A DNA stretch of 59,250 nucleotides, the filler included, from Basidiobolus ranarum (Eukaryota): assembly GCA_040143965.1 (NCBI GenBank). It is 11 parts of 11 records of this genome, joined end to end, with 100 filler letters (N's around TTAATTAATTAA, not from the genome) between each part and the next. Parts side by side here need not be neighbours in the genome. Positions count along the whole stretch, not along the records: positions 21,609 to 26,904 come from JASJQH010001641.1; 10 more parts are not named here. One strand, 5' to 3'. This document shows positions 16,110-48,574 of this stretch, one piece after another. The number at the start of each line of letters is the position of its first letter. Positions within the stretch are counted from its first letter, which is position 1. The notes below the pieces were generated by a model. That model did no database searches, was not told the origin of the DNA, and was given only the letters and a program-made list of their open reading frames with translations. A program made the translations under genes and the position numbers.

Positions 16110-16595
16110 NNNNNNNNNNNNNNNNNNNNNNNNNNNNNNNNNNNNNNNNNNNNTTAATTAATTAANNNNNNNNNNNNNNNNNNNNNNNNNNNNNNNNNNN
16201 NNNNNNNNNTCTTTATTGATAACTGGCATTGATCAGACCTCAGTCTGATCAAGGAATATAAGGGGCTTATATAGATATTGCAGGGTGAAACATAATCTAC
16301 TTAATAGGGAATATAATGTGGCAAGTTCAGGTGTCAGGGTGTTGGGTACTACAAGGACAAATACAATGAGGGATGATGTAAGGATGATGTAAGGATGATC
16401 ATATGACCTTCCATGGAAGGTCTTGGTGGAAATACAGTATGTGTGGGATGACATGATTGGTTAGGTTTTGTGGAATGTTCCAAAAAACATGACTTCCATA
16501 TAAGGTAACCTGGATGAACTAACACAAGATTCCTGAGAAGGGATGGCATAGCAGATATGATGTCATAATCTAATATTAGAAGAGTTCTATTTACA

Positions 16596-17162
16596 GTGGA
16601 TCAGTATGCCAAGATCAAAATCATGACAATTAGTTGTATTCAGATCACCAAAAATCCTGAGCATCACTCAAGAAGGAAACATAGTGACATAAAACATCAT
16701 TTTATACAAGAGAAAATTCACAACAAAGAAGTGAACTTGATTTATTGTAATACTAAAAAAATTCTTGCATATATACTTACAAAAACACTCAAAACTTGAA
16801 GTTTCAAAAAGTTAAGAGCAGGCATAGGCATTAGTAAATATAAGCAAAATGCTGAATAAGTATTAAGGGAAGGTGTTGGATAATTGACTTTTATTCAACA
16901 TCTTAGTTAACTTTAGTTATGATATATATTTCAGAAACAGAAAACAATGTATCAATATCACCTATATTCTAAATAGGAATATCTCTATATCTATATAACA
17001 AGTATGTCTTATTACACAAACTCCTGAATATTTCAAACAATTGATTTACTTCTCTACTATACAAGTCACCATATTCTCCTACAAATAAAGTAACTAAAAA
17101 TGCTATCAAAAGTTGCCTCTAATATACAAAGTCTACCCCCATTATGTCAAGATCCTCCAACA
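16596..17162 (+). mobile_element. 3' end of a copia element (family C): RNase H, PPT and 3' LTR 16874-17162
   Basis: KNPEHHSRRKHSDIKHHFIQE RNase H motif. Purine tract AAGGGAAGG. LTR with 7-bp inverted termini TGTTGGA...TCCAACA. Confidence 0.85.
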
Positions 17163-17811
17163 CTGAGAAAACTCTGAACAGATTTACACTATTCTCAAAA
17201 TTTGCCAACTCCAATATTTTAAGATAATCAAAGTTGTGTCAAATTAGCTAGTAATTCCACATTCCATACTAAAAGCAAATATGAAGATATTAGACATCTT
17301 TTTATTAAAGGGATTATAGAGGATAAGCATATTGCCTTAACTTATTATTCCACTGAACACATGATTGCTAATATATTAACCAAACTATTTGCTAGGAAGA
17401 AATTTGGGAAATTTAGACCTTCCTTAGGATTAGTTTATGTGACTATATAGTTGAGGGAGAGTGCTGAAATTAGCATTTTCTCAATACCTATACAGTGATA
17501 TATTGCTTAGTACTTAGTTATCCTATATTTCATTAAGATATCACCCATTAATCTCAATTGGGATTTGTTTAGAATATTTGTACCAACTTAGAAGTTCTCA
17601 GACATATAGATTATTTCAAACCTATTCTAGAAGCCCCATACTTTGCACACATATTCCTGGGACCTTCCTTAACACATTGTACACATTAGTTTGTTGACAT
17701 CTTGACAGAACTATAGATGTCAACTTTCTACTCAATAGATTAATAAGCTGAAACCACCAGTTTCTCTAATTATCCAAACCACCTCCAACAGGCTCCCAAA
17801 ATACTTTAACA
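17163..17811 (+). mobile_element. 3' end of a copia element (family B): RNase H, PPT and 3' LTR 17462-17811
   Basis: RNase H remnant (DNQSC...FHTKSKYEDIRH...HMIANILTK). PPT GAGGGAGAG. The LTR is homologous to the solo LTR at 44272-44598. Confidence 0.85.
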
Positions 17812-19539: not shown

Positions 19540-20766
19540 GATGCTCATGTAAAGATAGGGTACTCTTTGATTTTGTAATATATATATCTTCGTTTCATTG
19601 TAAAAATATTCAATAAAATATACAGTTACCAATCCTTACACCAATATCACAAATGAGCATATATAGCTTGGGAAACAAGTTTAATTTCATTCCTTTCCAT
19701 TGAGGATATCATGATTGCTCCGGTACTACCAAAAACTTATGTATTACATGAGGATCAAGTTTCTCAACCATTCCAAAAATCCAATGGGTTATGTACAATG
19801 ATGAAATGACGGGGGCCCATTACAAGTTTCTGAACTTGTTTTGGCTTCTGAAAGGCCACACTCTCTTTTCAAACCATCCACCATAGTGAGTTTTCATCCG
19901 AGAGCAGCGATCATCCTCCAGCCCAGTGGTTTCTAACAAGGCGATTCGATCATCTTGCCATGTGTCTCTACCACGATTCCCACCGAAGAAACCCGAGAAA
20001 TGGGAAATGGACTTCGCCAACGATTGCTTGCTATACATCTTAGAGAATGGAGGAATACAATTGCCAACAGCAAGATTCTCTTTATATATCTTTGGATGCA
20101 GTTGATTTTCAGCTCCCAGCATCAAGTCCAATCCAGCCCATCCCATCTCATCATCGATACATTTAGAAGAATCTAGTTTCAAAAAGTGGACTAACTTGGA
20201 ATCGAAAATCATTTAACAGAGATGTTTATCATGGATGATGCTTGTAGAACTGATGGCAATATTTGGTTATTGATTAAGAAACTGGTGAATATGCTTGTAG
20301 GCATCTGTTCACCCGAAAGCTGTAAAAGTGTTTCAAGGGTGAGCTTGATAGATGGTTGGCTCAAAGATTCCAAACTTCCGAAGCTAGAATCAGCACCGTA
20401 ACTGATGGTAATGAGATGTCATTTTAAGCGTCAATGAATCATTAACCAAATGACCCCTCATGTTGCAATATTTGTATGAAGCAAGGAAGTGTCAGTACGA
20501 ATTTACACATCAAGTGATTTGACGACAATATCAAATGCAACGGCATGATGTTTACAGGGTTACTGGCTTCACAATTTTCACTAACCAAAAAGAATACTGG
20601 TTGAGACATCATATGAGGCGTAAGAATCATCTTGAAGCTGAGAATGAAAGGTCAAACGTTTTGTTTCCGACAACTATTCTTCTATAACTTAGCCACATTT
20701 GAATTCTACCACTCTGCTCTTATAAGGGGCAAGGGCCCGTGTATGTTGAGAATCCCCCTTTTTAAC

Positions 20767-21345
20767 ATGGTTTTCGTTAAACCTGATCCCAATGGTCATA
20801 TCACTGATGATGCACGACAAGATAGATCCAAACAATCAAGGAAGTGCGCCATCATTGTGATATTCTTGATATTTATATTACTGCTGGCCGCTGTTTCCAG
20901 GGCATTGTGGTGGGCCACTACTAGACGCTATGTTATGAGAACCTCACATGAGCGAGTCAAAGGCTTCGTCCCTCCTACTAATTATCATAATAAAGGGAGG
21001 AAGCCCGAACAGACAAATACCATCATCCTTGTGCCGGTTGACTATAACTCAACCAACCCTACTCTGCCTTTTAAATTAGATGGAACTCTAAATGAGGCTT
21101 CATTTCGTCCACTAGCTACTATTAGCCCACACCAGAAAGTCACTACGATCTTACCTTCACCTAAAATCACAAATAAAAAGGGAGTCAGTGGTCAAGGGCA
21201 GGCGCCTATGGTACATACAAACTCTACTCAAAACATCTCAGTTGAAAAGGTCACTTCTGCAAACAGCACACTTCAACCTACACACACCTCAACTATTCAG
21301 AACAGTGCTAATTCAACACCAATTATCACATTACCAAAGCACTAA
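20767..21345 (+). CDS. Hypothetical type II membrane protein with an S/T-rich, probably glycosylated C-terminus
   Basis: ATG 20767, with a TATA-like TTATAA at ~20720. Basic residues precede a single TM segment (AIIVIFLIFILLLAAV). Multiple N-x-S/T sequons. Confidence 0.6.
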   Translation: MVFVKPDPNGHITDDARQDRSKQSRKCAIIVIFLIFILLLAAVSRALWWATTRRYVMRTSHERVKGFVPPTNYHNKGRKPEQTNTIILVPVDYNSTNPTLPFKLDGTLNEASFRPLATISPHQKVTTILPSPKITNKKGVSGQGQAPMVHTNSTQNISVEKVTSANSTLQPTHTSTIQNSANSTPIITLPKH

Positions 21346-24276: not shown

Positions 24277-24284
24277 TTATAAAT
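24277..24284 (+). promoter_or_regulatory. Candidate TATA box of the guanine deaminase gene
   Basis: TTATAAAT about 65 nt upstream of ATG 24344. Confidence 0.4.
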
Positions 24285-24343
24285 AGTGGTAGCCTCGCGG
24301 TGCATTAACATCATAACCCACTTTGCTTACTCTCAGTCCAGAT

Positions 24344-25711
24344 ATGCATCTCTACTCACTTGCTCTCATTTCCGCCGCTTTGGTCGGTAGCATCTCGGCT
24401 CAAAATGTGTTCTACGGAAGCTTTATTCATTCTGTGAATGTAACTAATCTGGAGCATGTTACTAAAGGCGTCATCGCCGTAGATAGGACTGGAAAGATAG
24501 TCCAAGTTGAGACTAATACAAGCGAAACGCAAGCTAGACAGATAGCCACTAAATATAGGGTGAGCCTCACTCTATTGGGTAATCAAAAATTTCTCATGCC
24601 TGGATTGATCGACACTCATATTCACGCTCCACAATATGTCTTTACTGGCTCTGGTATGGATCTGCAGTTACTTGATTGGCTTAATACGTATACATTTCCT
24701 CGTGAGGCTCGTTTCAACGACACTAGCTATGCCAGGGATGCCTACAACAAGGTGGTAGACCGTTTGGTGCGAGGTGGTACCACTGCTGCCAGCTACTATG
24801 CTACCATTCATTTGGAGTCTTCGAAGATACTGGCAGATATTGTGGAGAAAAAGGGTCAGCGTGCACTCGTCGGAAAAGTCAATATGGACCGTAATTCACC
24901 AGATTTCTATGTCGAATCTACTGCTCAGAGCCTGAAAGATACGGAGACTTTTATCCAATATGTCTTGAGTAAAAATAACTCCCGTGTCATCCCTATAGTT
25001 ACCCCCCGCTTTGTTCCATCTTGTACGACTGAGTTGATGAAGGGTCTTGGTAATCTCGCTGCCAAATATAACGTTCCGATTCAATCTCATCTTGATGAGA
25101 ACCTTGATGAAATTGCCTGGGTAAAGCAGCTGCACCCAGACCAACCTGACTACACCTCTGTATATGATGTCAATGGTTTATTGACAAATCGTACTATCAT
25201 GGCTCACGTGGTTCATCCAACAGATGCTGAGCGCCAACTGCTGAAACAGCGTGGTGCAGGAATTTCTCATTGCCCAAATTCTAACTTCAGTCTTCGTAGT
25301 GGTATAGCGAAAGTCCGTCAAATGCTGGCTGAAGGCCAAAAGATTGGCCTAGGCACGGATGTTGCAGGTGGTTATGGCACCTCTATTCTCAACACCATTC
25401 GTACTGGCTATTTTGCGGCCATCGCTCGTAGCTTCGACCATCCAGATGACAAATACCTAAAGTTAGCCGAAATTTTCTATCTTGCTACTCTTGGTGGGGC
25501 TGATGTGCTGGGAATGAAGAATACTCTTGGAAACTTTGTGGTCGGAAAACAATTCGACGCTTTAATTGTAGACCCTCTCGCCCGTGGTTCACCTATTGAC
25601 CTATTCTCACATGATGATGTAAAGACCATATTTGAGAAATTCATTAACAACGGGGATGACCGTAACATTATTCAAGTCTTTGTTGATGGAAAATCTATTC
25701 ATCGTGTTTAA
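24344..25711 (+). CDS. GUD1: Guanine deaminase (amidohydrolase family) with a predicted N-terminal signal peptide; 455 aa, intronless
   Basis: PGLIDTHIHAPQY, LLDWLNTYTFP, TPRFVPSC, QSHLDEN, MAHVVH, HCPNSN, LGTDVAGG and GDDRNI..V.V.G are all present. N-terminus MHLYSLALISAALVGSISA|Q. Confidence 0.93.
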   Translation: MHLYSLALISAALVGSISAQNVFYGSFIHSVNVTNLEHVTKGVIAVDRTGKIVQVETNTSETQARQIATKYRVSLTLLGNQKFLMPGLIDTHIHAPQYVFTGSGMDLQLLDWLNTYTFPREARFNDTSYARDAYNKVVDRLVRGGTTAASYYATIHLESSKILADIVEKKGQRALVGKVNMDRNSPDFYVESTAQSLKDTETFIQYVLSKNNSRVIPIVTPRFVPSCTTELMKGLGNLAAKYNVPIQSHLDENLDEIAWVKQLHPDQPDYTSVYDVNGLLTNRTIMAHVVHPTDAERQLLKQRGAGISHCPNSNFSLRSGIAKVRQMLAEGQKIGLGTDVAGGYGTSILNTIRTGYFAAIARSFDHPDDKYLKLAEIFYLATLGGADVLGMKNTLGNFVVGKQFDALIVDPLARGSPIDLFSHDDVKTIFEKFINNGDDRNIIQVFVDGKSIHRV

Positions 25712-26793
25712 CATTCTCAATTTAGTTCTTTGTTTGAAGTGTTCTTACAATCGCAAGGACATCATGCGTTAGTTTCCGTCAACAATAAAGGTTTATTTTA
25801 ACATCACATATAAGTAATAGATAAGCAACTCCAATTCTGTACATATCATTTCCCAGAATATAGAATGTAGCATGATTTCTGCTGAGTAGCCTGAAGCAGA
25901 CAACTCGCGATAAATCTATGTATAAGTGCTAATGTGGCTCATGTTGGGTGTAGTGTGAAACTACGGCTCCGTGTTCCATTTAAAGCGGTTAACACAGGTA
26001 ACAACTTGATGTAGGTATATATATATATATATATAAGTATAGAATAGATAAGTAAGCGTGTAATTCGGGAGTAGTATACTAACAGTAATAAGCTACGTAT
26101 ATTGGTTCTAAAATAGATTTATTTCCATCGACAACATAGGCATATTTATCACCTATAAGATTCATGGTATGGCTTCAACAGAATACGGGTGAAAGTAAAA
26201 TTAATTAGGAATAGAAAATCGATGACTTTTACTAGTACTTGAATCCCAAGTAATACGTTTCTAACGAGTATTTTATGGATGAATAAGTTTACACGCATAT
26301 GTGTATCAAGCACTAGCAATAATAGAGTCACCTCCGGCATACATCTAGTATAAGAATGTAAATTATGCCTAGCACTCCTACCCTAAGAAATTCACTCAAT
26401 TAGCGTTAATTAAACTATTAATCATGTAGTCGTATGTACATGACCTTCGTTCTAGCCTTGTCGGCATTCTGCTGGTCGATTTGAACACTTTGCATCTGAT
26501 AGAAATCAATGAAACTGGATATTAGACATTATTACGTGATATGAGTCTACTTACTATCATATTTCCCTGAATTTCATAAACGCTATGTTTGATATCCATT
26601 GGTAACTCATTCGAATATGGTTAGGTTCGGGGCTTGGGAATATAAATATTAAAAATTCACTATCAGTAGTTAAACACACCATTGCGTCAGATGAAGCAAT
26701 CCACTGAAAATTTTGAAACCTTCATCTACTCTATGGGCGTGGAATCGATTCAACTGGGGAAAATTGTTGGTTATAAATCAACTCTTTCTTAGC

Positions 26794-27159: not shown

Positions 27160-28250
27160 GGGCTAAAATTCAATTTTGATAAGTCAGGATGTATCATCAC
27201 TGATCAAAGTGGTAAATGTGTAGCTTTGGGAGAAAAGGATCAGATTTTATACAAACCTCCATATAATCAAACAGGTTTATGTGTAAATATAAGTTATTCC
27301 AATCAAGAAACTATTTAATTATGGCATAAGAGATTTAGCCACAATGGATCTGATTATTTGAGCAACATGATCAAAATTACATAATTTCTAGCATTCAAAT
27401 TAACCCCCCCCCAGCCAAAAAGGAATCTTGTGAGGGTTGTGTATATGTAAAACAAGCCAGTCAACTGTTCAAGAGATCTGGTTTAATCAAATCTGTCAAA
27501 AAATTGGATCTTATGTATTCAGATTTGTGTGGACCTGTGCTCAATGTCTCTTTAGGTCAAAAAGATATTAAATAATATTTGTTGTTTATACAAGATACAC
27601 TTGGGGCTGCTTTATGGAAAGAAACAAAGAAGTTGTGTCTATTCTTAGATATTTAAAACACTTGGGGAGCCCAAAACTAAACCCAAATGCAAGGAAATAG
27701 GTACTGATAATATACTTCAATACTTCTTTGTTATAATGAGGCTTTTTCTTGGAATTCAAAGAAACAACCTATTGTAGCACTTTCAACAGCAGAACCACAA
27801 TACATGGCTGCCTGCAAAGTAACAAAAGAGGCAATATGGTTAAGAATACTCCTAGCAGATTTAGGTTATTATTCATATTCACCAATAACAATATTTCAAG
27901 ATAAACAAAGTTTTATCAAATTAGCTACAATACCACATTTCATGGTAGAAGCAGGAATATAAGTATTAGACATCACTTTGTTAAAGATATTATTGAAAAA
28001 AAGCTTATTGACTTAAATTATTTTTCTACAGAAGACATGTTTGCTGATATATTTACCAAATCATTGGCTAAAAGGCAATTTGAGAAGTTTGGACCTTCCT
28101 TAGGATTAGCTCAAATGACTATTTAGTTCAGGGAGAGTATTGCAGGTAGCATTGCCTAAGACTTTATACCATTATGTATAGGTTAGTATTAGTTATTTTG
28201 TATTTCACTAAGATTTTATCCATTATCCTGCATTGGAATTTACTTTTCAT
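27160..28250 (+). mobile_element. Internally deleted copia (family B): GAG-pre-integrase and integrase start joined to RNase H, PPT and a partial LTR (from 28138)
   Basis: LWHKRFSH, CEGCVY and YSDLCGP, then KQPIVALSTAE..YMAA and DMFADIFTKSL. PPT AGGGAGAG. The LTR start matches 17462. Confidence 0.85.
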
Positions 28251-28329
28251 GACTTCTAGTTTCTCCAAGCACTGGTGAAAGCTAAAACACACTTTAACAT
28301 GAAGGTAGCTTGATTACCAAAGGATTAGA

Positions 28330-30430
28330 AGTCATACACTGGGCAGGTGTTTTCCACTTCTACCAAGTCTGTGACAAGCAACTATTGCCAATCTTATTTG
28401 GTAAAAGCATAAAAAGCCCAGCAAATACCTGGTTGCTAGGACAGGATTGAAACTCTCCACTCCTCAATGTTGTAAGCTGCTTCCTTGACTGTTATTATTA
28501 TGAGTGAACTAAGGCTTGCTGATCTTTTTTGACATATTGCCCCCAGCACTAGTATCACCAAGGTCAATACCTAGCAGCATGTCCTCAAAGTCTTTGGGAA
28601 TTACTGGCTTGACCAAACTTGCACTTTTGACTGCTTTGTTCCAGCCTTATAACTGTGGTAACTCCATGCTTTCTTCACTTTCAACAGTGTTACAAAAGAT
28701 ATGAGGTTAACCACAGCCAATGGACTCAGTGAGGAAAACTACAGTGATCCCTATGTTCAAATTAGTATGTGATGGCATGGGAAGGATATTGCTGCAGTGA
28801 AAAGTTGTTTCTAAGCTATTTTGCTATACAAAGTTAACCATGCAAATATTTCAATGCCATTAAAAATCATCCCCAATCTAATTCAAAATTGGCTTCCAAG
28901 CAAAAGCCTGCTAGCATGTGAGCAAATGCCTGCAGCACTGGCTTTGGAACATCCTTCTGGAGCCAATTTGGATAAAATCATTACCACAAGGGAGCTGCAG
29001 ACAGAATACAATAACAATTTGTGTGAGATAATTAGTAAAAACTATGATGTTGACATACCAGTCACAACAAGCAATAATGCAGCAATATTACTATCAATGC
29101 AGCATTATGAAATAGCCAGTCCTCAGTTAGAGAGTCATTTTGCTTGGATACAAGACTTTGAGAATGCTGTACTTGAGCAACAAGAACATGTTGCTCTCTT
29201 GATCCATTCCCATACAGGATTTCAATCAATCCTGCTCTACACATTTAAATCCCTGACAGAACTAAAATTGATTTGATCTGGATTGGATCCACCATTGTGG
29301 ATAGCAAAACATCAGAGAACAATCACAAGATTGGTGGCTTGCATTATACCAGGGATTTTAATGGTGAGACAGTGGCTTTGCAATGGAATTTTGCTAGTAT
29401 TCATATATGGTAAAGTTTTGCTCCTCACATTTGGCCTGTGCTACTAAAATTTCTGACAATTTTTGCAAAAATCTGATTTTTGAATGGCAATTTACTGGGT
29501 TTATTGCTGTAGCAATTCAAATTAACATGCATGCTTTTATTTAGACATTTTAGGCTTTGTATTCCAGCCATGCTGAGAATCAAAAATTACAAGAATTGTG
29601 TTATGTTTAGTCTCTACATATGCACATACTTAACTGATCAGACATAACTCAACAACATCAATATGCTTTACCAGCAAACTGATGGTGGAAAAATTACTTA
29701 ACATCTGAAATTTTGACCAGCACTAACACTAGGCAAATAGCTGACTCTGTTTACCATTGACACTGAGAATAAGCTCTTGAAATTTGGTATATTTTTGTCA
29801 AGAATTCAGCCAAAATTTCCACAACATGCAGTCAAAAAATGTTGCCTCACTAATAAATGTGTCATTGCTTGAATGATTGTTGCATGGCTAAACAATGATA
29901 CTGTATATCTCATTCTATCTGATCAAATGGCTGTCTTGCAGCTTTCCTAGAAAAATCATCAAATTACGACACCAACAAATTAGTTCAAATTATAGAGATA
30001 CTTACTCTGTGTCCATGGATTGAGTTTTATAGGTGTTTTGTGATCAAACAATGCAAAAGTACATGACCTTATTCTAAAGAGCTCAGTGTAGGAAGGATAT
30101 TACACTCAGGAGTTGGCTTAATTAATTGTATTAAATTTGTTAATGATTTTGCTGATACATTGCCAAGTAGATTAGCAAAAGGTAATACTAAAAATTTCTC
30201 ACAGAGTATCATTTCACTATAGGTACACTCCATTGGAAATTCCCAAAATGTAAAGCAAGGGCCTAAAATCTCTCAGAATACTGAGCAATGTGGCTGGGAA
30301 TGAATTGAATATGTATATATATTCAATCTAGCTTCTTTAAAACTGTATGAAAGTTTTTCATATCCAATTACCAAATCTTTGCACAGTACTATATCTGCCA
30401 ATGAGAGTTGATGCCACAAAACCAAAGTAA
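28330..30430 (-). mobile_element. CACTA/EnSpm-like element fragments (5' region ~28330-29375; transposase C-terminal region ~29720-30430)
   Basis: Reverse-complement similarity to 34900-35260, to 4600-5305 and to 36900-37590 (the FWEFPME motif at ~30225-30250 on the minus strand). Confidence 0.7.
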
Positions 30431-30542
30431 CAATATTCATGAACTAATTAAAGTGTTTAGGGTATTTGGAAGTGTATTGCATAAGATTTGGCTTTGTGAA
30501 TTACTTATGTTTTATTGAAATGAACATATCCTATTTATGGTA

Positions 30543-32300
30543 GGTTAAAATTTGCAAAATAGCAGCTTGTTATTTAGTAGTTGGTTTATTCATTTCTGAT
30601 TATTGAGCACTCAATTCTGTCATACAAAAATGTGTGCTTATTGCTCAAATTGCTATATATGTTTATTAGATCACTTTTTTCAATTTATACTATTTTCTCA
30701 AAACTTCTGCAAATCACCTCAAATTTTTACCCATGATTAACAGACATGTTTGTTATGATTTAGGTACATCCAATAGTCCTACTTCACAGTACTCTACACA
30801 TAGAAAATAATCAATTCAATAAAACTTAAGTGTTCAATTCACAAATCCAATTCTTGCCCAAAACACTTTTATCAGGTTATGAGCCCCAAGCTAGCCATTA
30901 GAGGAATGTCTACCAATACTATTGCTAATGTTTGAGCATCCTCAGAGAAGTTTGATGGAGAAGACTTTCACCTTTGAAAGTTCAAGATGAAAAGAGTGCT
31001 AGATGACAAAACAGATACACTTAGATATTCTTTTTCAAATCAAAATCTGAAGCCTTAGCAACTTTCAAGCACTACAAACAAGTGGTGGAGAAAGAATCAG
31101 TGCAAAAAATATGGGTACCAAGGAGTGATAAAGGTGGTGAATATTGCTCTAAAGACTTTGCCAATTTTGTCCTTATCATGGAGTTAAGTAACAAACTACT
31201 GTACCATATCCTCAGCAGCAAAATGGAGTTGCAGAAAATGCTTAAAGGACCATAGTGGAGATAGCAAAATCAATGCTGCATCATCAATAGTTAGATTACC
31301 AAAATTGGGTTGAATCTGTCTTCTCTTCAATCTATGGTGAATACAGATGACAAACAAGATTGCTACAAAATTCTACTCCATTGAAGCCCTATATGGATCA
31401 AAATCAAGTGTGGAACATTGTCAGATATTTGGTTGCGTAGCATATTGCCTAATTACAGCTCAAAAATGCTCTAAATTGGAACCCAAAAGCAGAGAATGCA
31501 TATTGGTTCATTACTGTGATGGATTCAAGGCCTATGGATTATTTTATACCAATAGTCCAAAGTTAATAGAGTGCAGATACGTCATTTTGGAAGAAAAAGC
31601 AAATTAACCCCTTATATCACATTTCTTGATCCAGAGGATACAATCAGCACTATTCAAGAGGTGTCTGAAAAAGTTCCGGTTGTATTTGAGCCCTATTTAA
31701 CAGAAATTCCAGCCCCAATTACATCAGAGGTTAATTCAGGACCTAGAAGATGAACTAGAGGGAGGAATTAGCCTGGGAATTTGGAGGAACACTGATGATG
31801 TCTTTTTCTATGCAACATTCTGTGATGAGCTGCAGACTCTAGATGAAGCTCTAAAGTGTTGAGAATCTAAATGCCAGAAAAAGCAACATCTGATGAACTT
31901 TCTTCACTTCAGGACAATAAAACATGGGCTTCGAGTGCTCTACCATCAGGGAGAAAGCCAATAGGTTACAAATAGGTCTACAAAGCTAAATACCAAGCTG
32001 AAAAACCATATAAAGGTACAAAGCAAGGTTAGTTCCAAATAGTTAATTTCAGATTCCAGGAGTATATTTAATACAATATTTGCTCCAGTAGCTAGGTTAG
32101 GCTTCATTAGATCAATATGGGCACTCTCAGCCTTCCATAGCCTTGGCTTATAACAAATTGATGCAAAAAACAGCCTCTCTAAATCAAAATCTCAAAATAG
32201 AGATCTATATTGAGCATGCAGATGGATTTGTTGACCCAAAACACCCTGATCCAGTCTGTAACCTGCAAAAGTTGCTATATGGACTCAAGCAAGCTCTTAG
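30543..32300 (+). mobile_element. Degenerate copia (family A): LTR, PBS, gag start fused by deletion to integrase, then RT; cut by the contig end
   Basis: LTR ends TTTTATCA at 30874. PBS GGTTATGAGCCC 30875-30886. gag ATG 30906. RSDKGGEY, QQNGVAE, IFGCVAY, KLEPKSREC and LQKLLYGLKQA follow. An inverted LTR fragment lies at ~30447-30540. Confidence 0.9.
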
Positions 32301-32400
32301 NNNNNNNNNNNNNNNNNNNNNNNNNNNNNNNNNNNNNNNNNNNNTTAATTAATTAANNNNNNNNNNNNNNNNNNNNNNNNNNNNNNNNNNNNNNNNNNNN

Positions 32401-32690
32401 AGTCTTGGAATTCTCGCTTTTCCAACCAACAATGAAGTTCAATAAATATTTTAAAGAAGGCTTTATCTCCCTACTGTCGATATTCTTATTGATATGTCTT
32501 TTTTACACAATCAATAAGGTTAAGAAAACTTTTAACAGATTTAGTTTATTTTCAAATTCACCAACTACAATATTTCAAGATAATCAAAGTTGCATCAAAT
32601 TATCTAAAAATCACTTGTTCATAATGTAAGCAAACATATAGATATTAAGCATCACTTCATAAGAGGGACTGTAGAGAAAAAGTTTTCACT
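32401..32690 (+). mobile_element. Copia RNase H fragment
   Basis: PTTIFQDNQSCIKLSKN...KHIDIKHHFIR. Confidence 0.75.
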
Positions 32691-34600
32691 CTTGTCACCA
32701 TTGACAATGAGAATAAACTCTTTGATTTAGGCAAATTTCTGCAATGAATTCAGCCGAAATAACCCCAAATTGTAGTCAACAAACTTACTGCCACAAGCAG
32801 CTATATCAAGTGGGGAATAGATTACCCCATGGTTGAAACAATAGTAATGCATGCCTCAATCTATCTCATCAAGTCTGCCTTGCAGCATTTCTAGATATGT
32901 CATCATAATATAACATGAACAAAATAGGCCAAATTATAGTGTCACTTACTCTGTGTTTTTGGATTGGGTTTTGTTTGTGATTTTGTGTTTGATCATTGCA
33001 AAATGCCATGAGCATATTGAAACAAGCTCTATGTTGGGTTAATGTAGTCTGGAGTCTCTTTAACAGCAGTATTACATCCATCACTGATTTGGCTGATGCA
33101 TTGTTAATCAGCTTGGCATACAGTATTAAACATGGTTTCACTCAGAACATCATATGACTACAGGTACCCTCCATCAAGAACTCCTAGCATGTATTACAAG
33201 GGCCCGTAATTTTTGAACATTGTGAAAAGCTGCAACAGGGAATGTATTGAATACTGACATAGATTGATTGTTTCTTCTTATAACCTGTAATAATGTTTCT
33301 CATATCCATTTACAAGATCTTTGCACAGCTACTGTATCTGGCTGAGATCTACTAATGTGAGGTGATACTGTAAGAATATATTAACCTAATCCACAAGCAA
33401 CTCCCATTGTTGCCAATACTCATAAGGCAGAAATCTTTTCAAGAAGCTCTGGCTCCAGCTAATCCCCTTTACCTATATAATCTTAGGCTTATGGCAAATC
33501 CCAAGTTTGTTGTTTGACTGACTATTTGGTGAATTGATATCAGTAAGCATGTTGAAATCTAACCAGGCTCTGGATAGTAAAATCATGGAGCTTAGTGCTG
33601 TATTTGGATAGTAGGATTGTCTATGCAAGTAAACTCCATTGATCAAAAAGAATCTTCTGCAAGATAGTGCATTGTGATCACAAAAACATCCATATATACT
33701 GATGGCAGGAGTGTTACCAATACACACAATGATATTAGGTTTCAAAAAATATATACCCATCTGAACCCAACAGACAGCCATTGAATTGCATTAGAGGCTT
33801 CAAGATGATATCTATAAGCACTGGTGATTTAGGTCTAGGTATGATGGATAGTATCTGAGTATCAAAAGTTTTATACCATTCAGAAAGTGGATGATTTAAG
33901 TAAATTAAAATGATTAGACAGTAATCATTTCTAACAGTATTTTTGTTTAGTGAAAAACCATCCAGAGCCATTGCTAATGCTTGAGCATACATGTTCTCAA
34001 AGAAACCTTGACTTTTCAGATTCTGGTAGTGATATCCTTCATGTATATTGGTAATACAAACTGCTTTACAGTGAGTGCTTTGGTATTGGATCAATGATCT
34101 ATAGTTGGGTGGTTTCATCAAAACTTTAAGATAGGGAATCAACAGTGTGTGCTTCCATTGCTATAACAATCCTATCCCAATCTTCTACAGATATGTGTTC
34201 AATAGTTGGCAAAGCAGCTGTTTTGGAAGTTGATGGGCTTGACTTTGTTTCTCTTGAACCTTTCCAACTATTAATTTACTATGTAATTAGGGGTTTATAA
34301 TCTCTTCAGTTGCATTACTGGTGGAAATGCATATATGATTAATGCTTTGTCATTGCTTGAGTTAGTTTCTGGTATGTTCATGCCTTGTGAAGTGGATAGT
34401 GGAGTGCTGAACTGCTCATCAATTACTTCTTCTGATTCTGCTGTCTTTTTCCTCTCATGCCAGCAGGTTTGTGCTTGGTAGTTGATTTAGATTTTGTTAT
34501 TGAACACTTTTTGAATGGCATTGAAATTTTGACATGGGAAGCTTGGTGTAATGTAATTGCTTAGAAACAGCTTATAATAAACCAATATTGCAATCTATTA
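32690..34600 (-). mobile_element. CACTA/EnSpm-like transposase pseudogene
   Basis: ALAMALDGFS, LIILIYLN, LKPL and VCIGNTPAIS...CRR in ORFs 33735-34142 and 33473-33781 are Transposase_21 (tnp2)-like motifs. Paralogous to 34800-37590. Confidence 0.75.
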
Positions 34601-34799
34601 CCAGAAATATCTTGTCAATCCCCTAATGACTCATTGTTGACATTATCTCAGAATTGGCTGATGTTATTCATGGTATGTACCTAAAATACCACCCTTACAT
34701 AGGAGGTGTTCTTTTTCCTCAATAACCTTCTCATGCTACAACACAAACATTGAAGAAAGCCCTGCTATTATTGTCACAAATTTGTGTACTATGAAAGCT

Positions 34800-37590
34800 A
34801 GAGACCTCATAAAAATATAATCATAAGCATGGTCACTGTCCAATGCCAGTAGCTGCACAAAGCATGGTGAGTATCTACAGTAATAAGTGCACAAAAATGA
34901 CATTAGTTCTGCCCACTGAGTCCACTAGCTGTGCTGTACCTCCAAGTTTAGCTATCACTGCTGAAAGACAAGATACTGTGGAGTTACCACAGTTATATGA
35001 CCAGAATGATTTAGATAAAATTAATGCCTTGGTTGAACCAGTAGTTCCAGCCAACCTCAAGGACATGTTGCCTGATGTTGACCTTGGTTATTTCAGTACT
35101 GATGGTAGTTTAACAGAAGAAGATGATGATAATGATGGTTTTGTTACAAAAGGTTTGTCCTTGGCAAGCATAAGTTCACTTATAGCACTTACAGTATAAG
35201 GCAGCAGCTTTGATTATTGAGAAGTGGAGAGCCCAATGCAATCTCAGCAACCAGGTTTTTGTGGGTTTTCTTACACTTGTATCACAGTTGATTGGCAGGT
35301 GTTGCTTGCTACAGACCTGTTACAAGTGCAAAACACTTGTCAGTGGTAGGACTGCAAATCCTTCAGGAATTAAACTACCTTCATGTCCAAATGGTAGTTT
35401 GACTTTCACCAATGATCTGAAAACTTGCATCTCTATACTGTTTGCATACAATAGGCGATCACTGAGTCAGGTAAATATTGTTCATATTGGCTTTCATACT
35501 GTTGATAACCTGTCTTAAAGCTTTGATGAAATCACCCAAATGTACATCATTGATCTATTACCATAGTACCCACCATGAGGCTGATGGTAATACCTATATA
35601 CTTAATAGATATCACTACCAGAATATGAACAGTCAAGGTTTTTGTGGGAATACCTATGATTATGCATTTGCATTTGCTCTGCATGGTTTCTCATTAAACA
35701 AATATATCAATAAAAAGGTTTTCTGGCCAATAATTTTAATTAACTTAAATATTTCTCTTTTTAAATGGTATCAGAGTGAGAGTGTATTGATATTTCCCAC
35801 CATATCTTGACCTATATCACCAGTGCTTATATATAGCTTCTTAGAGCCATTGATTGTGGAATTCACATGGTTATCTCTTGGGGCTCAGATGGGTGTATAT
35901 TTTTCAAAGCTAATATCAATGTATGTATTGGTGACACTCCTGCTGTCAGTAAGCTTGGAGGTTTTCATGGGTGCAAAGCACTCTCTTACAGTAGATCTTC
36001 CCAAATCATTGGAGTTTGCTCTACCAGACATGTGCAACAATACCATCCAAATTCAGCATTAAACCATTTGAATTTAATGGTAAGAGCCTGGTCAGATCAC
36101 AATGGGCTCACTGATATCACATCATCAAATGGTAAGTCTGACATCAAACTTGGGATTAGCTGTAAGCTTATGAATCAATTGCTAAAGGGGATCAGCAGGG
36201 GCCAGAGCTTTCTATGAGACTCTATGTTCAAATTAGGTGAATAGCAACTCATTATTTACTAGTTAGTTTATTCCTATTCTAATTATATAGCACTCAATTC
36301 TGCCATTCGAAAATGTGTGTTTATTGCTCTAATTGATTAAAATAGCAATAAGATCACTTTTACCAATTTTCACTATTTTCTCAAAACTTCTCCAAATCAC
36401 CTCAAATTTTCACCTGTGCTTGACAGGCATGTTTTTTATGTTCTCAGCATGTCCAATAGTCTTATCTCATAGTAAACTATTAATAGGACATATTTAATTC
36501 AATAAAACTTAAATGTGAAATTCACAAATCCAAATCTTGTTTAAAACACTTCCAAATCACCTAAACACTTTTATCACTCTATGCACCTACTATTCAACAA
36601 TATTCCAATACTACTTACTCAGCTATATGATGGAAAATTCAGTGTGAATGAGCCATGAAAGATAGGATTGAAGTCTGAGTTGATCGGGAAAATTCTTGAA
36701 AACATCAATATCCATTGAATTTTACCAGGACTCCTATTGATGTCAAACCCATATAGGCAAGTATTCAAATGCAAAGACAATAATTATAAGATTTGCATAT
36801 ACTACAGTTGACTCTTGAAAAAATTTCAGTCTGATTAGTATTGTCAACATTGGGAGTTGTTTATGAATATTGTTAACATATTCTTAAGGTATTAGGCAAC
36901 ATTGTCAGATCACAGGCCAATATGGTGCCTGTGCATGGATTTTGTAATTGGATATGCAAGACTTTGTTACAGGCTTGAAGATGATAGACTAAGTGTATGC
37001 TGGTATTCAATATATTCCCTGATTCAGCTTTCATAATGGTTAAAGATTATAGGCCCTTGATATGCATTCTGGGATTTCCCAATGGAGCATGCTGGTGGTG
37101 AAATGATGCTCCATGTGAAATTGTCAGTATTACTGTATGCCAATCTGGGTAACAATATATCATCAAAATCAGTGTTGGATGTAATGTGAGAGGTAAGAAG
37201 ACTACAAAGTGTATCAACCTTCCAACAAAGGGCTCTTTTCAGCATTCTTTTGGGTTTTTGCATTGTTTGAGCACAATAGCAGCAACCAAACCCAATCAAT
37301 GGACTCAGAGTAGTTCATCTATAATTTGGACTAATTTGTTCATGTGATAATCTGATAGTATTGGTAGGAAAGCTGCAAGACAGACTTTTTTGTGGAAAAA
37401 ATGAAGATATACAATTTTATTGCATTAGCAATGCCATGTGGTAACATATTGAAGCACCAACAGATCTACTTTTGACAGGACATTTTCTGACTGCAAGTCA
37501 CAAATAATTTGGTAGGTTTCTTTACAAAAATTTGCCAAAATCCAGAGCTTTCTCTCATTGGGAACAGTAACAAGCAACAGCTATCTTAGC
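34800..37590 (+). mobile_element. CACTA/EnSpm-like transposase pseudogene (longest copy here), interrupted by a solo LTR
   Basis: Fragmented ORFs with AFALHGF, WPIILINLN, FLEPLIVE, VCIGDTPAVSKLGGFHG and, after the LTR, FWDFPMEHAGG. Confidence 0.78.
36225..36576 (+). mobile_element. Solo LTR (copia family A) with 5-bp TSD CTCTA
   Basis: TGTTCAAATTAGG...TTTTATCA termini. CTCTA at 36220-36224 and 36577-36581. The homologous transposase copy at ~4280-4310 shows the empty site. Confidence 0.92.
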
Positions 37591-40170: not shown

Positions 40171-41910
40171 TTAGACTGGATGTCCATTATTCTCTTCTTC
40201 TTCAAGATCCTCAGCTTCCTTGGGCATCACCAAGTTCAAAATAATTGCTATGATTGAAGCAATGGTGAAACCAGAGTTCACAATCATTTCTGCTGAAATG
40301 ATGAGACCATTGACTGTGGTGTTAGAGCCCTTATAGGAAGAAAGTGCATAGGAGAACCAGTCGTCCTTGATGGTAGTGCCCATACCAAGGGTCATGGCTG
40401 CAGCTGCGATGAAACGATCACGACGTGTCCATTTGAGATAAGAGAGAATACGAATGCCGGATACAAGTACATTCGCAAATAAGAAGGTGGTCATTCCACC
40501 CAACACCGACTCGGGAATGGCAAGGAACACTGAGGCCAGCTTGGAGAACACTCCCATGATAATCAGGAAGAAGCAACAGGCATAGCCAGTGGTTAGATTC
40601 GCACATCTGGTCAGTGCTACAATTCCGTTGTTCTGTGCGAATGTTGACATCGGTGGGTTGGTGAGAAGTCCCGCAAAGAGACTGTTGAGTCCATCAGCCA
40701 GCACTCCACCTTGAATACGAGTCTCGAATACTGGTCCCGACACCTCCACTCCAGACACATCGCAACAGGCAGTGATGGTACCAATGGACTCGACTGCGAT
40801 CAGCATGTAGATCACCAGCATCGGAATGATTGCTGGTGTGTAGATCCCTAATGGGAATGTCTTGACCCACACAAAGGTGACAACTGGTGCTTCGTTGATA
40901 ACCTGAGTGTTCACATATCCAGTAGACCATGAAACAATCAAACCAACAATCAGTCCTAGTACTACCTCAGCAGAGCGCATGAAGTGCGAGCCAAAGATGT
41001 CGAAGAGAATGATGGAAATGAACACCAGGAAACCAAGTCCCATGTACTTGATATGACCCCAAGGAAGGGCATTTGGAGAATTGATGTTGGGGCAAAGGAC
41101 GAAGTTTCCTTCCTTAGGATGACTGATGCAAGGTCCACTGCCTCCACCCCAGTTCTTCAATCCAGATCCAACCAAGTGAGCTCCGATTAAGGTGACAGTG
41201 ATTCCGGTGACGAGTGGTGGGAAGAGTTTGTGAAGAACCTTGGCTGGAACAAAGGAGATCAGAATCATCAGTACTGAGCACATCATGGTTGTCCCTAGTA
41301 ATGCACCATATGCTTCTGGACAAGGTAGATATTGAGTGATTACACCGAGATCATTCTTCACTGTCGGACAGAAGCCCGACTCATACATATACGCAAATGA
41401 AGACTCAGCCACTGGCATGATGGTGAACGAGGTACCCACAACAGTGATGAGGCCAGTGCCCATATAGTAGCGAGTGCCAGGGATTCTCCACCGGGTCATC
41501 TGAATGAACGAAAGCAAGCCGCAGGTGATGAGTGAAGCAGAGATGAGGTATGAGCGATATTCAGTGTTAAGATTCATGTGTTGAGGTCCAGGCCCGGAGA
41601 GAATAAGAGGTGGTGTGACTACACCGGCAAGCATAGCTAAGCAATGTTGGAATCCCATGATGATGGCTACAGCCAAAGGCAAGCGGTCTTTGAGGCCAAT
41701 GAACTTTGCGGGTGGTTGTTTGGCAAGTCCTGGTAAGTTGGGCAGACATAAGAAACTGAAGTCGTATTCACCGATCCAACCCTGCCTGGTACACAAGTTG
41801 CGCATATACCACTTTAGGTTGCTCTCTTCATCTGGGGCGTAAGGAGTGGGTTCAGTGGAAATGAAGTCTTTGTCGTCGATACCTGATATAGCACCCTCTT
41901 CTTTCTTCAT
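40171..41910 (-). CDS. uapA: Uric acid/xanthine permease (NAT/NCS2 family, UapA/UapC-like); 579 aa, intronless
   Basis: GFQHCLAM (TMS1), VVGTSF (TMS3), LADG, the NAT signature FAQNNGIVALTRCAN, and VLGGMTTFLF. Confidence 0.93.
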   Translation of the reverse strand: MKKEEGAISGIDDKDFISTEPTPYAPDEESNLKWYMRNLCTRQGWIGEYDFSFLCLPNLPGLAKQPPAKFIGLKDRLPLAVAIIMGFQHCLAMLAGVVTPPLILSGPGPQHMNLNTEYRSYLISASLITCGLLSFIQMTRWRIPGTRYYMGTGLITVVGTSFTIMPVAESSFAYMYESGFCPTVKNDLGVITQYLPCPEAYGALLGTTMMCSVLMILISFVPAKVLHKLFPPLVTGITVTLIGAHLVGSGLKNWGGGSGPCISHPKEGNFVLCPNINSPNALPWGHIKYMGLGFLVFISIILFDIFGSHFMRSAEVVLGLIVGLIVSWSTGYVNTQVINEAPVVTFVWVKTFPLGIYTPAIIPMLVIYMLIAVESIGTITACCDVSGVEVSGPVFETRIQGGVLADGLNSLFAGLLTNPPMSTFAQNNGIVALTRCANLTTGYACCFFLIIMGVFSKLASVFLAIPESVLGGMTTFLFANVLVSGIRILSYLKWTRRDRFIAAAAMTLGMGTTIKDDWFSYALSSYKGSNTTVNGLIISAEMIVNSGFTIASIIAIILNLVMPKEAEDLEEEENNGHPV

Positions 41911-48474: not shown

Positions 48475-48574
48475 NNNNNNNNNNNNNNNNNNNNNNNNNN
48501 NNNNNNNNNNNNNNNNNNTTAATTAATTAANNNNNNNNNNNNNNNNNNNNNNNNNNNNNNNNNNNNNNNNNNNN

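What the first reader, a model, noticed from the sequence alone, without database searches (positions are those of the whole stretch)
24344..25711. Guanine deaminase that appears to be secreted
Seen: a complete amidohydrolase-type guanase with its metal and catalytic motifs (HIH, SHLDEN, AH, GTD). It is preceded by a classical signal peptide (MHLYSLALISAALVGSISA, then Gln at +1) and has six N-x-S/T sequons (NVT, NTS, NDT, NNS, NRT, NFS). Known: characterised members (yeast Gud1, human cypin/GDA, E. coli GuaD) are cytosolic and have no signal peptide. Inference: an extracellular guanase would release ammonium and xanthine from poorly soluble guanine, the nitrogenous waste of mites and spiders and a component of animal skin crystals. 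That would be an unusual nitrogen-scavenging or host-interaction function for a fungus. The gene is intronless, so it may be a retro-copy or neofunctionalised paralog.
Basis: partly seen in the sequence, partly recalled or inferred. Interest (0 to 1): 0.82.

Follow-up and report, generated by a model that had tools for sequence, protein, structure and literature searches.

The report
Signal-peptide guanine deaminase of Basidiobolus
A fungus of frog and lizard guts has extra copies of the purine-recycling enzyme guanine deaminase that carry an export tag and other marks of secreted proteins, so it probably breaks down guanine outside the cell, which I found described nowhere for this enzyme.

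Summary
Window 24344..25711 (+) is one uninterrupted 455-aa ORF. It is an intact guanine deaminase: TIGR02967 scores 444 bits against a cutoff of 375, and the model matches human GDA at TM 0.92-0.95.

Residues 1-19 lie outside the fold and have the layout of a eukaryotic signal peptide. SignalP was not available, so this rests on a crude rule of my own.

The window comes from Basidiobolus. The gene belongs to a genus-specific paralog clade, with at least 5 models in B. ranarum and 7 in B. meristosporus. This clade is sister to ordinary cytosolic-type Basidiobolus guanases.

Three signatures, independent of the leader, mark the clade:
- Every dispensable cysteine is gone: 2 Cys, against 7-8 in the cytosolic paralogs and a median of 8 in 110 other homologs.
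- Sequons at N32, N58, N125 and N282 are conserved in the clade and rare elsewhere.
- pI is about 7, against about 5.5.

81 of 84 family-conserved columns are kept, so the enzyme is still a guanase.

Best reading (0.55): a guanase routed into the secretory pathway and most likely released, turning guanine into xanthine and ammonium. Secretion itself is not shown. A vacuolar or wall-bound location is the main rival. The retro-copy idea could not be tested. My literature searches found no described signal-peptide guanase.

The parts
24278..24286 (+). TATA box (TATAAATAG), 66 nt upstream of the start codon
   Evidence: Sequence read and position computed. No ATG lies between it and 24344.
24344..24400 (+). 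Codons 1-19, putative cleavable signal peptide MHLYSLALISAALVGSISA. The uncharged h-region is L3-V14 and the c-region is GSISA, with I at -3 and A at -1. Gln20 would be the first mature residue.
   Evidence: Crude n/h/c plus (-3,-1) rule is positive, with controls. Residues 1-15 have pLDDT below 50 and the fold starts at about residue 19. Human GDA aligns only from residue 20. The same layout is present in 6 of 9 near-full-length clade models.
24401..25708 (+). Mature guanine deaminase domain (residues 20-455). It has HxH at H92/H94, Q97, R222-F223, H249, E252, H288, H309-C310 and D339.
   Evidence: TIGR02967 444 bits, above the cutoff of 375. 81 of 84 family-conserved columns are kept in all five clade members tested. 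AF2 mean pLDDT 93.2. Foldseek gives human GDA 4aql/2uz9 at TM 0.92/0.95, rmsd 1.6 A.
25709..25711 (+). Stop codon TAA. The C-terminus ...DGKSIHRV has no HDEL/KDEL and no hydrophobic GPI-type tail.
   Evidence: read directly.
25784..25789 (+). AATAAA, a possible polyadenylation signal 73 nt after the stop
   Evidence: Sequence read. Its function is inferred only.

Best explanation
The gene encodes a catalytically intact zinc guanine deaminase (guanine + H2O -> xanthine + NH3). It belongs to a Basidiobolus-specific paralog family.

Sequence of events proposed: a eukaryotic cytosolic-type guanase was duplicated. One copy then acquired a cleavable N-terminal signal peptide and was remodelled for the oxidising, glycosylating secretory pathway. 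It lost all five dispensable cysteines, fixed new N-glycosylation sequons in surface loops, and shifted to a higher pI. It then multiplied, partly in tandem.

The folded domain starts directly after the predicted cleavage site. There is no pro-region, retention signal, transmembrane segment or GPI signal. The default fate is therefore release to the medium or cell wall.

Outside the cell it would deaminate poorly soluble guanine to xanthine plus ammonium, both of which the hypha can take up. Likely guanine sources are arthropod excreta, nucleic-acid breakdown in gut contents and faeces, and iridophore crystals of shed herptile skin.

Shown: enzyme identity, the clade, the leader and the three sequence signatures. 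Inferred: leader cleavage, glycosylation, extracellular location, substrate source and physiological role.
For: 1. Enzyme identity and integrity.
- TIGR02967 above cutoff.
- 81 of 84 columns that are at least 95% conserved in 113 other homologs are unchanged in all five clade members tested. The 3 exceptions are T->S, G->S and S->A/G.
- The model matches human and yeast guanases at TM 0.92-0.95.

2. The leader.
- Residues 1-19 are outside the fold.
- My crude signal-peptide rule is positive for the query, P0001, P0123, P0002, P0125 and P0003, which is 6 of 11 clade models. It is positive for 0 of 3 Basidiobolus cytosolic-type paralogs and for 0 of 1 sister sequence (P0127).
- The rule is positive for the in-window chitin deacetylase (positive control) and negative for the permease (negative control).
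- Two separately annotated species start at the same Met.

3. Cysteine purge.
- 2 Cys in all 9 near-full-length clade models, against 7-8 in the cytosolic paralogs.
- 110 other homologs have a median of 8 and a minimum of 3. 93 representatives of 400-520 aa have a minimum of 4.
- Of 7 alignment columns that are at least 30% Cys elsewhere, the cytosolic paralogs keep all 7. The clade keeps only the two near-universal ones (C227, C310) and has S, S, D, V and A at the other five.

4. Clade-specific conserved sequons.
- N32: 7 of 9 clade models, 1 of 113 others.
- N58: 8 of 9, against 9 of 113.
- N125: 9 of 9, against 1 of 113.
- N282: 9 of 9, against 14 of 113.
- In the DSSP string these sit at or next to breaks between secondary-structure elements.

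5. pI is 6.7-7.8, against 5.3-5.6 in the cytosolic paralogs and a median of 5.62 in 110 others.

6. Phylogeny (careful tree, leader columns dropped).
- Basidiobolus cytosolic-type + (P0127 + clade): 99/97.
- P0127 + clade: 100/99.
- Subclades SP1 98/95 and SP2 100/98, each containing both species. The leader-bearing form therefore predates the split of the two species.

7. Rarity.
- Among the 110 other nearest homologs, none named as fungal has a hydrophobic extension before the first strand.
- None of 106 evaluable 50%-identity representatives shows a leader abutting the fold.
Against:
- The n-region has no Lys or Arg (MH-).
- My rule also flags 6 of 110 other homologs. Five of these are flagged only because their hydrophobic first beta-strand starts at residues 3-7, so the rule is weak on its own.
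- Five of 11 clade models do not pass. P0004 starts mid-leader. P0005 and P0006 are truncated models. P0126 and P0128 are full-length models with non-hydrophobic N-termini, yet they keep 2 Cys and the sequons. These two are either mis-modelled starts or genuine leaderless copies.
- The nine clade sequences are at least about 80% identical, so 'conserved in 9 of 9' is largely shared descent.
- Total sequon number overlaps the cytosolic range. The cytosolic paralog P0009 has 6.
- Nothing here separates release from a vacuolar or wall-bound fate.
Confidence: 0.55

Rival explanations
1. The leader works, but the enzyme stays inside the endomembrane system. It would be a vacuolar (lysosome-like) guanase that degrades guanine released by RNA turnover and autophagy, or an enzyme retained in the cell wall or periplasmic space and not free in the medium.
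For: Every signature found (leader, Cys purge, sequons) is equally expected of a vacuolar glycoprotein. Established knowledge: fungal vacuolar hydrolases enter through the ER with signal peptides.
Against: The fold begins immediately after the predicted cleavage site. There is therefore no pro-peptide of the kind that carries the sorting signal in classical yeast vacuolar hydrolases (recalled). A vacuolar housekeeping role does not obviously call for 5-7 copies per genome.
Confidence: 0.2
2. The hydrophobic N-terminus is not a working export signal, because of a wrong start, an upstream exon or a tolerated tail. The enzyme would then be one more cytosolic guanase copy.
For: No predictor or expression data were available. 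The n-region lacks a basic residue. Two sister models (P0126, P0128) are annotated without a leader. A pyrimidine-rich stretch ending in CAG at 24334-24336 could in principle be a 3' splice site.
Against: An in-frame stop lies 11 codons upstream, a TATA box at -66, and no other usable ATG exists; the next Met is M85, inside the fold. Two annotation projects give the same start. A cytosolic enzyme gives no reason for the clade-wide loss of exactly the five dispensable cysteines, or for four new conserved sequons.
Confidence: 0.1
3. The paralogs have changed substrate. They would deaminate another aminopurine, pterin or triazine met in the gut or on skin, and 'guanase' would be a misnomer.
For: Paralog expansion often accompanies new specificities. 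Amidohydrolase deaminases switch substrates with few changes; solved relatives include a designed ammelide deaminase (3e0l) and an isocytosine deaminase (7ww2).
Against: 81 of 84 family-conserved columns are retained, including HxH, Q97, R222-F223, H249, E252, H288 and D339. The score is above the guanine-deaminase equivalog cutoff. The stem branch is no longer than that of the cytosolic paralogs (0.30 against 0.32).
Confidence: 0.1
4. The segment is an uncleaved signal anchor, and the enzyme is tethered to a membrane as a type II protein.
For: Other eukaryotic guanases have N-terminal hydrophobic segments that look like anchors, followed by basic residues and a 50-80 aa linker: P0054, P0080, P0091, P0104, P0105, P0109.
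Against: The uncharged core here is only 12-15 residues. It is followed by a small-residue c-region (SISA) and then the fold, with no linker. The anchor-like homologs keep 9-14 Cys, unlike this clade.
Confidence: 0.05

Closest known systems
Human guanine deaminase GDA/cypin (PDB 2UZ9, 4AQL)
   Same: Same family and fold: 47% identity, TM 0.92/0.95, rmsd 1.6 A, E 3e-125. The HxH, His, Glu and Asp catalytic and metal columns are identical.
   Different: The human enzyme aligns only from query residue 20 and has no hydrophobic leader. It is a cytosolic protein (recalled). The query clade has 2 Cys, a pI near 7 and clade-specific sequons.
Yeast Gud1 (PDB 6OH9/6OHA) and E. coli GuaD (6OHB/6OHC)
   Same: Guanine deaminases of the amidohydrolase superfamily: E 3e-102 and 2e-71, TM 0.93 and 0.86.
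   Different: More distant than the human enzyme. Neither alignment covers query residues 1-19. Known as intracellular enzymes (recalled).
Basidiobolus cytosolic-type guanases (P0007, P0008 of B. meristosporus; P0009 of B. ranarum)
   Same: Sister group in the tree (99/97), 54-57% identical. These are the conventional copies in the same genus.
   Different: No leader: N-termini of 9-20 polar residues before the first strand. They have 7-8 Cys and pI 5.3-5.6, and lack sequons at N32, N125 and N282.
Metagenome protein P0127 (a longer model of P0010)
   Same: Nearest relative outside the genus, grouped with the clade at 100/99. Shares HLDEN and the N32 sequon.
   Different: No leader and 5 Cys, on a long branch of 0.95. 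It looks like the state before, or without, the secretory remodelling.
ADA2/ADGF/CECR1 secreted adenosine deaminases of animals (recalled, not tested here)
   Same: Functional analogy only: a purine deaminase whose signal-peptide-bearing paralogs act outside the cell.
   Different: A different family. No adenosine-deaminase Pfam family was hit; only Amidohydro_1 and Amidohydro_3 were. Different substrate and different kingdom.

Membership tests
Guanine deaminase (EC 3.5.4.3), amidohydrolase superfamily, TIGR02967 | Whole-protein score above the curated equivalog cutoff | tested here: met
   444.4 bits against a cutoff of 375.4, covering model positions 2-401 of 401.
Guanine deaminase (EC 3.5.4.3), amidohydrolase superfamily, TIGR02967 | HxH, His, His and Asp metal-binding set plus the catalytic Glu and substrate-contact Gln and Arg-Phe columns | tested here: met
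   H92, H94, Q97, R222, F223, H249, H288, D339 are invariant and E252 nearly invariant (90% or more) in a 48-sequence alignment, and all are present in the query. 81 of 84 conserved columns are kept. The assignment of roles to these residues is recalled from the human structure.
Guanine deaminase (EC 3.5.4.3), amidohydrolase superfamily, TIGR02967 | TIM-barrel plus beta-sandwich fold of solved guanases | tested here: met
   AF2 pLDDT 93.2, pTM 0.91. The top 10 Foldseek hits are nine guanase chains plus 3e0l, an ammelide deaminase designed from human guanase, TM 0.84-0.95.
Guanine deaminase (EC 3.5.4.3), amidohydrolase superfamily, TIGR02967 | Deamination of guanine to xanthine | not testable with these tools
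   Needs an enzyme assay.
Eukaryotic proteins with a cleavable ER signal peptide | N-terminal n/h/c layout with small residues at -3 and -1 | tested here: met
   Crude rule of my own. The best 8-residue window averages Kyte-Doolittle 2.61, and ISA|QN is among the candidate sites. The positive control passes and the negative control fails. SignalP was not available, so this is weaker than a trained predictor.
Eukaryotic proteins with a cleavable ER signal peptide | The segment is an extension outside the folded domain | tested here: met
   pLDDT is below 50 for residues 1-15 and the first strand starts at 19. Human GDA aligns from residue 20. The median extension in 106 evaluable representatives is about 5 residues.
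Eukaryotic proteins with a cleavable ER signal peptide | Conserved in orthologs and paralogs | tested here: inconclusive
   Present in 6 of 9 near-full-length clade models from two species. P0004 starts mid-leader. P0126 and P0128 are modelled without it.
Eukaryotic proteins with a cleavable ER signal peptide | No retention, GPI or transmembrane signal, so that the default fate is secretion | tested here: met
   The C-terminus ...DGKSIHRV is read directly. No hydrophobic tail is present, in contrast to the chitin deacetylase in the same window.
Eukaryotic proteins with a cleavable ER signal peptide | Translocation, cleavage and release shown experimentally | not testable with these tools
ADA2/ADGF secreted adenosine deaminases | Adenosine/AMP deaminase domain | tested here: not met
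   Pfam hits are Amidohydro_1 and Amidohydro_3 only. This is an analogy of logic, not membership.

The most novel reading that the evidence does not exclude
Basidiobolus has built an extracellular purine-mineralising front end that no other fungus is known to have. It would consist of a multiplied family of secreted guanases (at least 5-7 copies per genome) working together with a multiplied set of UapA-type xanthine/urate permeases. Eleven near-identical permease copies were found in B. meristosporus here. 16 NAT/NCS2 members are reported in print for that species, against a fungal mean of 2. One permease lies two genes from this guanase. The system would be an adaptation to the guanine- and urate-rich wastes and shed skin of the arthropods, amphibians and reptiles through which the fungus cycles. 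It would be the first extracellular guanine deaminase described in a eukaryote.
Probability: 0.35. Interest if true: 0.7.

Novelty: new variant of a known kind. Interest (0 to 1): 0.6.

Why it matters
Guanine deaminase is a textbook intracellular salvage and catabolic enzyme. A version moved into the secretory pathway, with a clear evolutionary record of the move, is a clean natural example of how a cytosolic enzyme is refitted for export. The record runs from duplication to leader gain, loss of free cysteines, gain of glycosylation sites and then copy-number expansion.

If the enzyme is released, it adds a new activity to fungal secretomes: purine base mineralisation outside the cell. It would also give a testable link between the odd ecology of Basidiobolus and its gene content. 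That ecology runs from insect and mite carriage to herptile gut and faeces, and includes occasional human infection.

A glycosylated guanase that is stable outside the cell and poor in cysteine could also be a practical reagent for guanine or xanthine assays.

Tried and rejected
- Whole genome: none is held for this window. I could not count paralogs in the window's own assembly, compare intron structure with the cytosolic paralog or test the retro-copy idea.
- Metagenome scan for the contig of P0010, the nearest non-Basidiobolus relative. It returned 80 loci at 49% identity or less and not the contig sought, so the loci were not used. The longer model P0127 came from the cluster look-up instead.
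- Conserved linkage of guanase and permease. In B. meristosporus, 7 clade guanase models sit on scaffolds of 5 lengths and 11 permease copies on scaffolds of 8 lengths. No length is shared. The proximity in this window is therefore not a conserved cluster.
- Shared promoter motif between the 1 kb upstream of the guanase and the 1 kb upstream of the permease. Shared 9- to 12-mers do not exceed shuffles (21 against a mean of 16 and a maximum of 32 for 9-mers). There is no CGG-N6-CCG site, and HGATAR sites number 7 and 4. Nothing usable came of this.
- Second guanase copy or pseudogene in the window: tblastn finds only the gene itself.
- Horizontal transfer from bacteria: rejected. The clade nests inside eukaryotic guanases, next to the Basidiobolus cytosolic-type copies.
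- Total sequon count as evidence: set aside. It overlaps the cytosolic range, so per-column conservation was used instead.
- Earlier notes of this scan: three look-ups gave nothing on this genome or this protein.
Full report
**What is there**

It is a guanine deaminase on four counts:
- The NCBIfam equivalog TIGR02967 scores 444.4 bits against a cutoff of 375.4, over the whole model.
- Pfam gives Amidohydro_1 at E 2.7e-62.
- The best solved relatives are human GDA (2uz9, E 3e-125), yeast Gud1 (6oh9, E 3e-102) and E. coli GuaD (6ohb, E 2e-71).
- An AlphaFold2 model built on a 48-sequence alignment has mean pLDDT 93.2. It superposes on human GDA at TM 0.92/0.95 and rmsd 1.6 A.

The start is well defined. 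An in-frame stop lies 11 codons upstream. The only upstream in-frame ATG (24203) terminates after four codons. A TATAAATAG box lies 66 nt before the ATG, with no ATG in between. The next Met (M85) is inside the fold.

**Where it comes from**

All close relatives are from Basidiobolus. The query's exact sequence sits in a 90% cluster with B. ranarum proteins.

The genus holds two kinds of guanase:
- One kind (P0007, P0008, P0009) is 54-57% identical to the query and has short polar N-termini, like guanases of other fungi and animals.
- The other kind includes the query. In B. ranarum it comprises the query, P0001, P0123, the fragment P0124 and P0003. In B. meristosporus it comprises P0002 and P0125 (consecutive accessions on one scaffold, so tandem), P0126, P0128, P0004 and the truncated models P0005 and P0006.

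A careful maximum-likelihood tree was built from 35 of the sequences, chosen by me, with the leader columns dropped by the fill filter. Its main groupings:
- Basidiobolus cytosolic-type copies with the second kind: 99/97.
- The second kind with one metagenome protein, P0127: 100/99.
- Two subclades within the second kind, SP1 (98/95) and SP2 (100/98), each containing both species.

The family therefore arose by duplication of a eukaryotic guanase in this lineage, not by transfer from bacteria. It had already split in two before the two species diverged.

**The leader**

Residues 1-19 are M-H, then an uncharged core L3-V14, then G-S-I-S-A, followed by Gln20. The first beta-strand follows at once.
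- The model gives pLDDT below 50 for residues 1-15 and starts the fold at residue 19.
- The human enzyme aligns only from residue 20.
- No trained predictor was available, so I wrote a crude n/h/c plus (-3,-1) rule.

Results of the rule:

| Set | Positive |
|---|---|
| Clade models | 6 of 11 (query, P0001, P0123, P0002, P0125, P0003) |
| Cytosolic-type paralogs | 0 of 3 |
| P0127 | 0 of 1 |
| Chitin deacetylase in the same window (positive control) | yes |
| Permease (negative control) | no |
| Other homologs | 6 of 110 |

Five of the six other positives are flagged only because their own hydrophobic first strand begins at residues 3-7. The rule alone is therefore weak evidence.

The five clade models that fail are:
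- P0004, which starts in the middle of the leader of its ortholog P0003.
- P0005 and P0006, which are truncated models.
- P0126 and P0128, which are full-length models with non-hydrophobic N-termini. Without DNA I cannot say whether these are mis-modelled starts or leaderless copies.

**Signatures independent of the leader**

*Cysteines.*
- All nine near-full-length clade models have exactly 2 Cys. The three cytosolic-type paralogs have 7-8.
- 110 other close homologs have a median of 8 and a minimum of 3.
- 93 more distant representatives of 400-520 aa have a minimum of 4.
- Seven alignment columns are Cys in at least 30% of other homologs, and the cytosolic-type paralogs have Cys at all seven. 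The clade keeps only the two near-universal ones (C227 and C310) and has S, S, D, V and A at the rest, identically in all five members tested.
- Removal of free thiols is what one expects of a protein that must fold in the ER and work in an oxidising medium. That link is an inference from general knowledge.

*Sequons.*

| Position | Clade models (of 9) | Other homologs (of 113) |
|---|---|---|
| N32 | 7 | 1 |
| N58 | 8 | 9 |
| N125 | 9 | 1 |
| N282 | 9 | 14 |
| N314 | 8 | 61 |

- N314 is common everywhere and says nothing.
- N211 is a sequon in only 3 of 9 clade models.
- The four informative sites fall at or next to breaks between secondary-structure elements in the model.

*Charge.* pI is 6.7-7.8 in the clade, against 5.3-5.6 in the cytosolic paralogs and a median of 5.62 in 110 others.

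*Caveat.* The clade members are at least about 80% identical, so these counts are not independent events. Each signature is best read as one or a few events on the clade's stem.

*The nearest outsider.* P0127 has no leader and 5 Cys. This fits remodelling after that lineage split off. However, the branch separating P0127 from the clade has only 88/78 support.

**Still a guanase**

Of 84 columns at least 95% conserved in 113 other homologs, 81 are unchanged in all five clade members tested. The three exceptions are conservative: T200S in one member, G335S in SP2, and S359 to A or G. The stem branch of the clade (0.30) is no longer than that of the cytosolic-type copies (0.32). A change of substrate is therefore not indicated, though only an assay can exclude it.

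**How rare is this**

Among the 110 other nearest homologs, most have 5-12 polar residues before the first strand. Eight have longer N-terminal extensions with a hydrophobic stretch:
- P0070 of the amoebozoan Planoprotostelium.
- P0021.
- Six unnamed proteins of 514-523 aa (P0054, P0080, P0091, P0104, P0105, P0109). Their hydrophobic segment is followed by basic residues and a 50-80 aa linker.

All eight keep 9-14 Cys. They look like membrane anchors or targeting peptides, not like this clade. None of the eight carries a fungal name.

In the 150 best representatives of a 1.84-billion-protein library, 106 could be evaluated.
- 23 have extensions of 15 residues or more.
- 10 of those have a hydrophobic 10-mer.
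- By inspection, none is a leader abutting the fold. P0274 and P0278 cannot be fully excluded.
- That library represents the query's own cluster by the leaderless P0009, so it hides variation within clusters.

**Literature**

Full-text searches and results:
- 'extracellular guanine deaminase': 0 papers.
- 'guanine deaminase' + 'signal peptide' + 'secreted': 15 papers.
- 'guanine deaminase' + 'secretome': 23 papers.
- 'guanase' + 'extracellular' + 'fungi': 2 papers.
- 'Basidiobolus' + 'guanine': 17 papers.
- 'Basidiobolus' + 'secretome': 31 papers.
- 'Basidiobolus' + 'uric acid': 6 papers.

From the listings, and from the passages I read, none describes a signal-peptide or secreted guanase. What I read in individual papers:
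- Zygomycete secretome study (PMC9391592): the main text has no occurrence of amidohydrolase, deaminase, guanine or purine (passages). Its supplementary tables, which I could not open, may list these proteins.
- 19-genome Basidiobolus preprint: no occurrence of deaminase, purine or guanine (passages).
- PMC8778642: lists guanine deaminase only as a subfamily of MEROPS M38 expanded in early-diverging fungi (passages).
- PMC9224576 and PMC10978972: mention guanine deaminase only in passing, as a differentially expressed gene and as a transfer candidate in other fungi (passages).

**Surroundings**

The guanase is flanked downstream by the following features:
- Retroelement debris, including a retroviral-polymerase SH3-like domain at 31341-31604.
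- A four-exon PRP38 splicing-factor gene at 38418-39685.
- On the minus strand at 41910..40174, a single-ORF 579-aa NAT/NCS2 permease. TIGR00801 scores 410 bits. It carries the motif QNNGIVALTR, which I recall as the xanthine/urate (UapA-type) form of the NAT signature.

This permease family is also multiplied in the genus. I found 11 copies about 89-92% identical to it in B. meristosporus. A published survey counted 16 NAT/NCS2 members in that species against a fungal average of 2 (PMC6308229, one passage).

The product of a guanase is exactly the substrate of such a permease, so the pairing is suggestive. The linkage is not conserved, however. None of the 7 B. meristosporus clade guanases shares a scaffold length with any of the 11 permeases. 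The two promoters in this window share no motif above chance. I therefore treat the permease as a lead, not as part of the feature.

**Most likely mechanism**

The proposed path is:
1. Co-translational entry into the ER through the leader.
2. Cleavage after A19.
3. N-glycosylation at some of N32, N58, N125 and N282.
4. Release by default, because there is no pro-peptide, HDEL, transmembrane segment or GPI tail. The GPI-like tail of the chitin deacetylase shows the contrast.
5. Outside the hypha, hydrolysis of guanine to xanthine and ammonium.

Guanine is the excretory product of mites (PMC5602048, abstract and passages). It is also a skin pigment of amphibians: frog skin, unlike liver, contained guanine in PMC5974026 (passages). 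The life cycle of Basidiobolus through arthropods and herptile guts is described in PMC9391592 (passage).

Converting a very poorly soluble base into a more soluble one plus ammonium would make that nitrogen accessible. The relative solubilities are recalled. The substrate source and the physiological role are inference.

**Verdict**

Export is well argued from sequence and comparative evidence but not demonstrated. The vacuole or wall cannot be excluded. The retro-copy suggestion has no support and could not be tested.
- I rate it a new variant of a known kind, with interest 0.6.

Noticed in passing
window 40174-41910 (-): A single-ORF 579-aa NAT/NCS2 permease with the motif QNNGIVALTR (UapA-type xanthine/urate form, recalled). 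It is the second gene downstream of the guanase. The family is multiplied in the genus: 11 copies about 89-92% identical in B. meristosporus, and 16 NAT members reported in print against a fungal mean of 2 (PMC6308229). Linkage to the guanases is not conserved in B. meristosporus.
   Followed up: partly
window 5306-5405, 10709-10808 and so on, roughly every 5.4 kb up to 53864-53963: Paired 44-base runs of N recur at a regular spacing of about 5.4 kb. This looks like masking or scaffolding of the record, not biology. None touches the guanase gene.
   Followed up: no
window 12173-13279 (-): A chitin deacetylase (Polysacc_deac_1) with a clear signal peptide, a chitin-binding CBM18-type domain and a hydrophobic GPI-like C-terminal tail. 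Used here as an in-genome positive control for a signal peptide.
   Followed up: partly
window about 16500-17450 and 27300-37000: Degenerate retrotransposon remnants. There are short ORFs resembling the C-terminal end of copia-type polymerases (by eye) and a retroviral-polymerase SH3-like domain at 31341-31604. They fill most of the gap between the guanase and the next host gene.
   Followed up: partly
window 38418-39685 (+): A PRP38 splicing-factor gene split over four reading frames, so it has several introns, with an Arg/Ser/Asp-rich tail. It shows that introns are present locally, while the guanase, permease and deacetylase are single ORFs.
   Followed up: partly
window 46193-48519 (+) and 51864-53912 (+): Two ABC transporter genes: one of the ABC_membrane + ABC_tran type, and one PDR-like with ABC_trans_N, ABC_tran and ABC2_membrane.
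   Followed up: no
proteins P0054, P0080, P0091, P0104, P0105, P0109 (unnamed sources), P0070 (Planoprotostelium) and P0021: A group of eukaryotic guanases of 514-523 aa has a 50-80 aa N-terminal extension. It starts with a hydrophobic segment followed by basic residues, like a membrane anchor or targeting peptide, and the proteins have a normal Cys content of 9-14. P0070 and P0021 have shorter hydrophobic extensions. Their localisation is unknown.
   Followed up: partly
window 20617-21345 (+): A 242-aa stop-to-stop ORF with one hydrophobic stretch and a Ser/Thr/Asn-rich tail carrying several sequons. It has no Pfam match.
   Followed up: no
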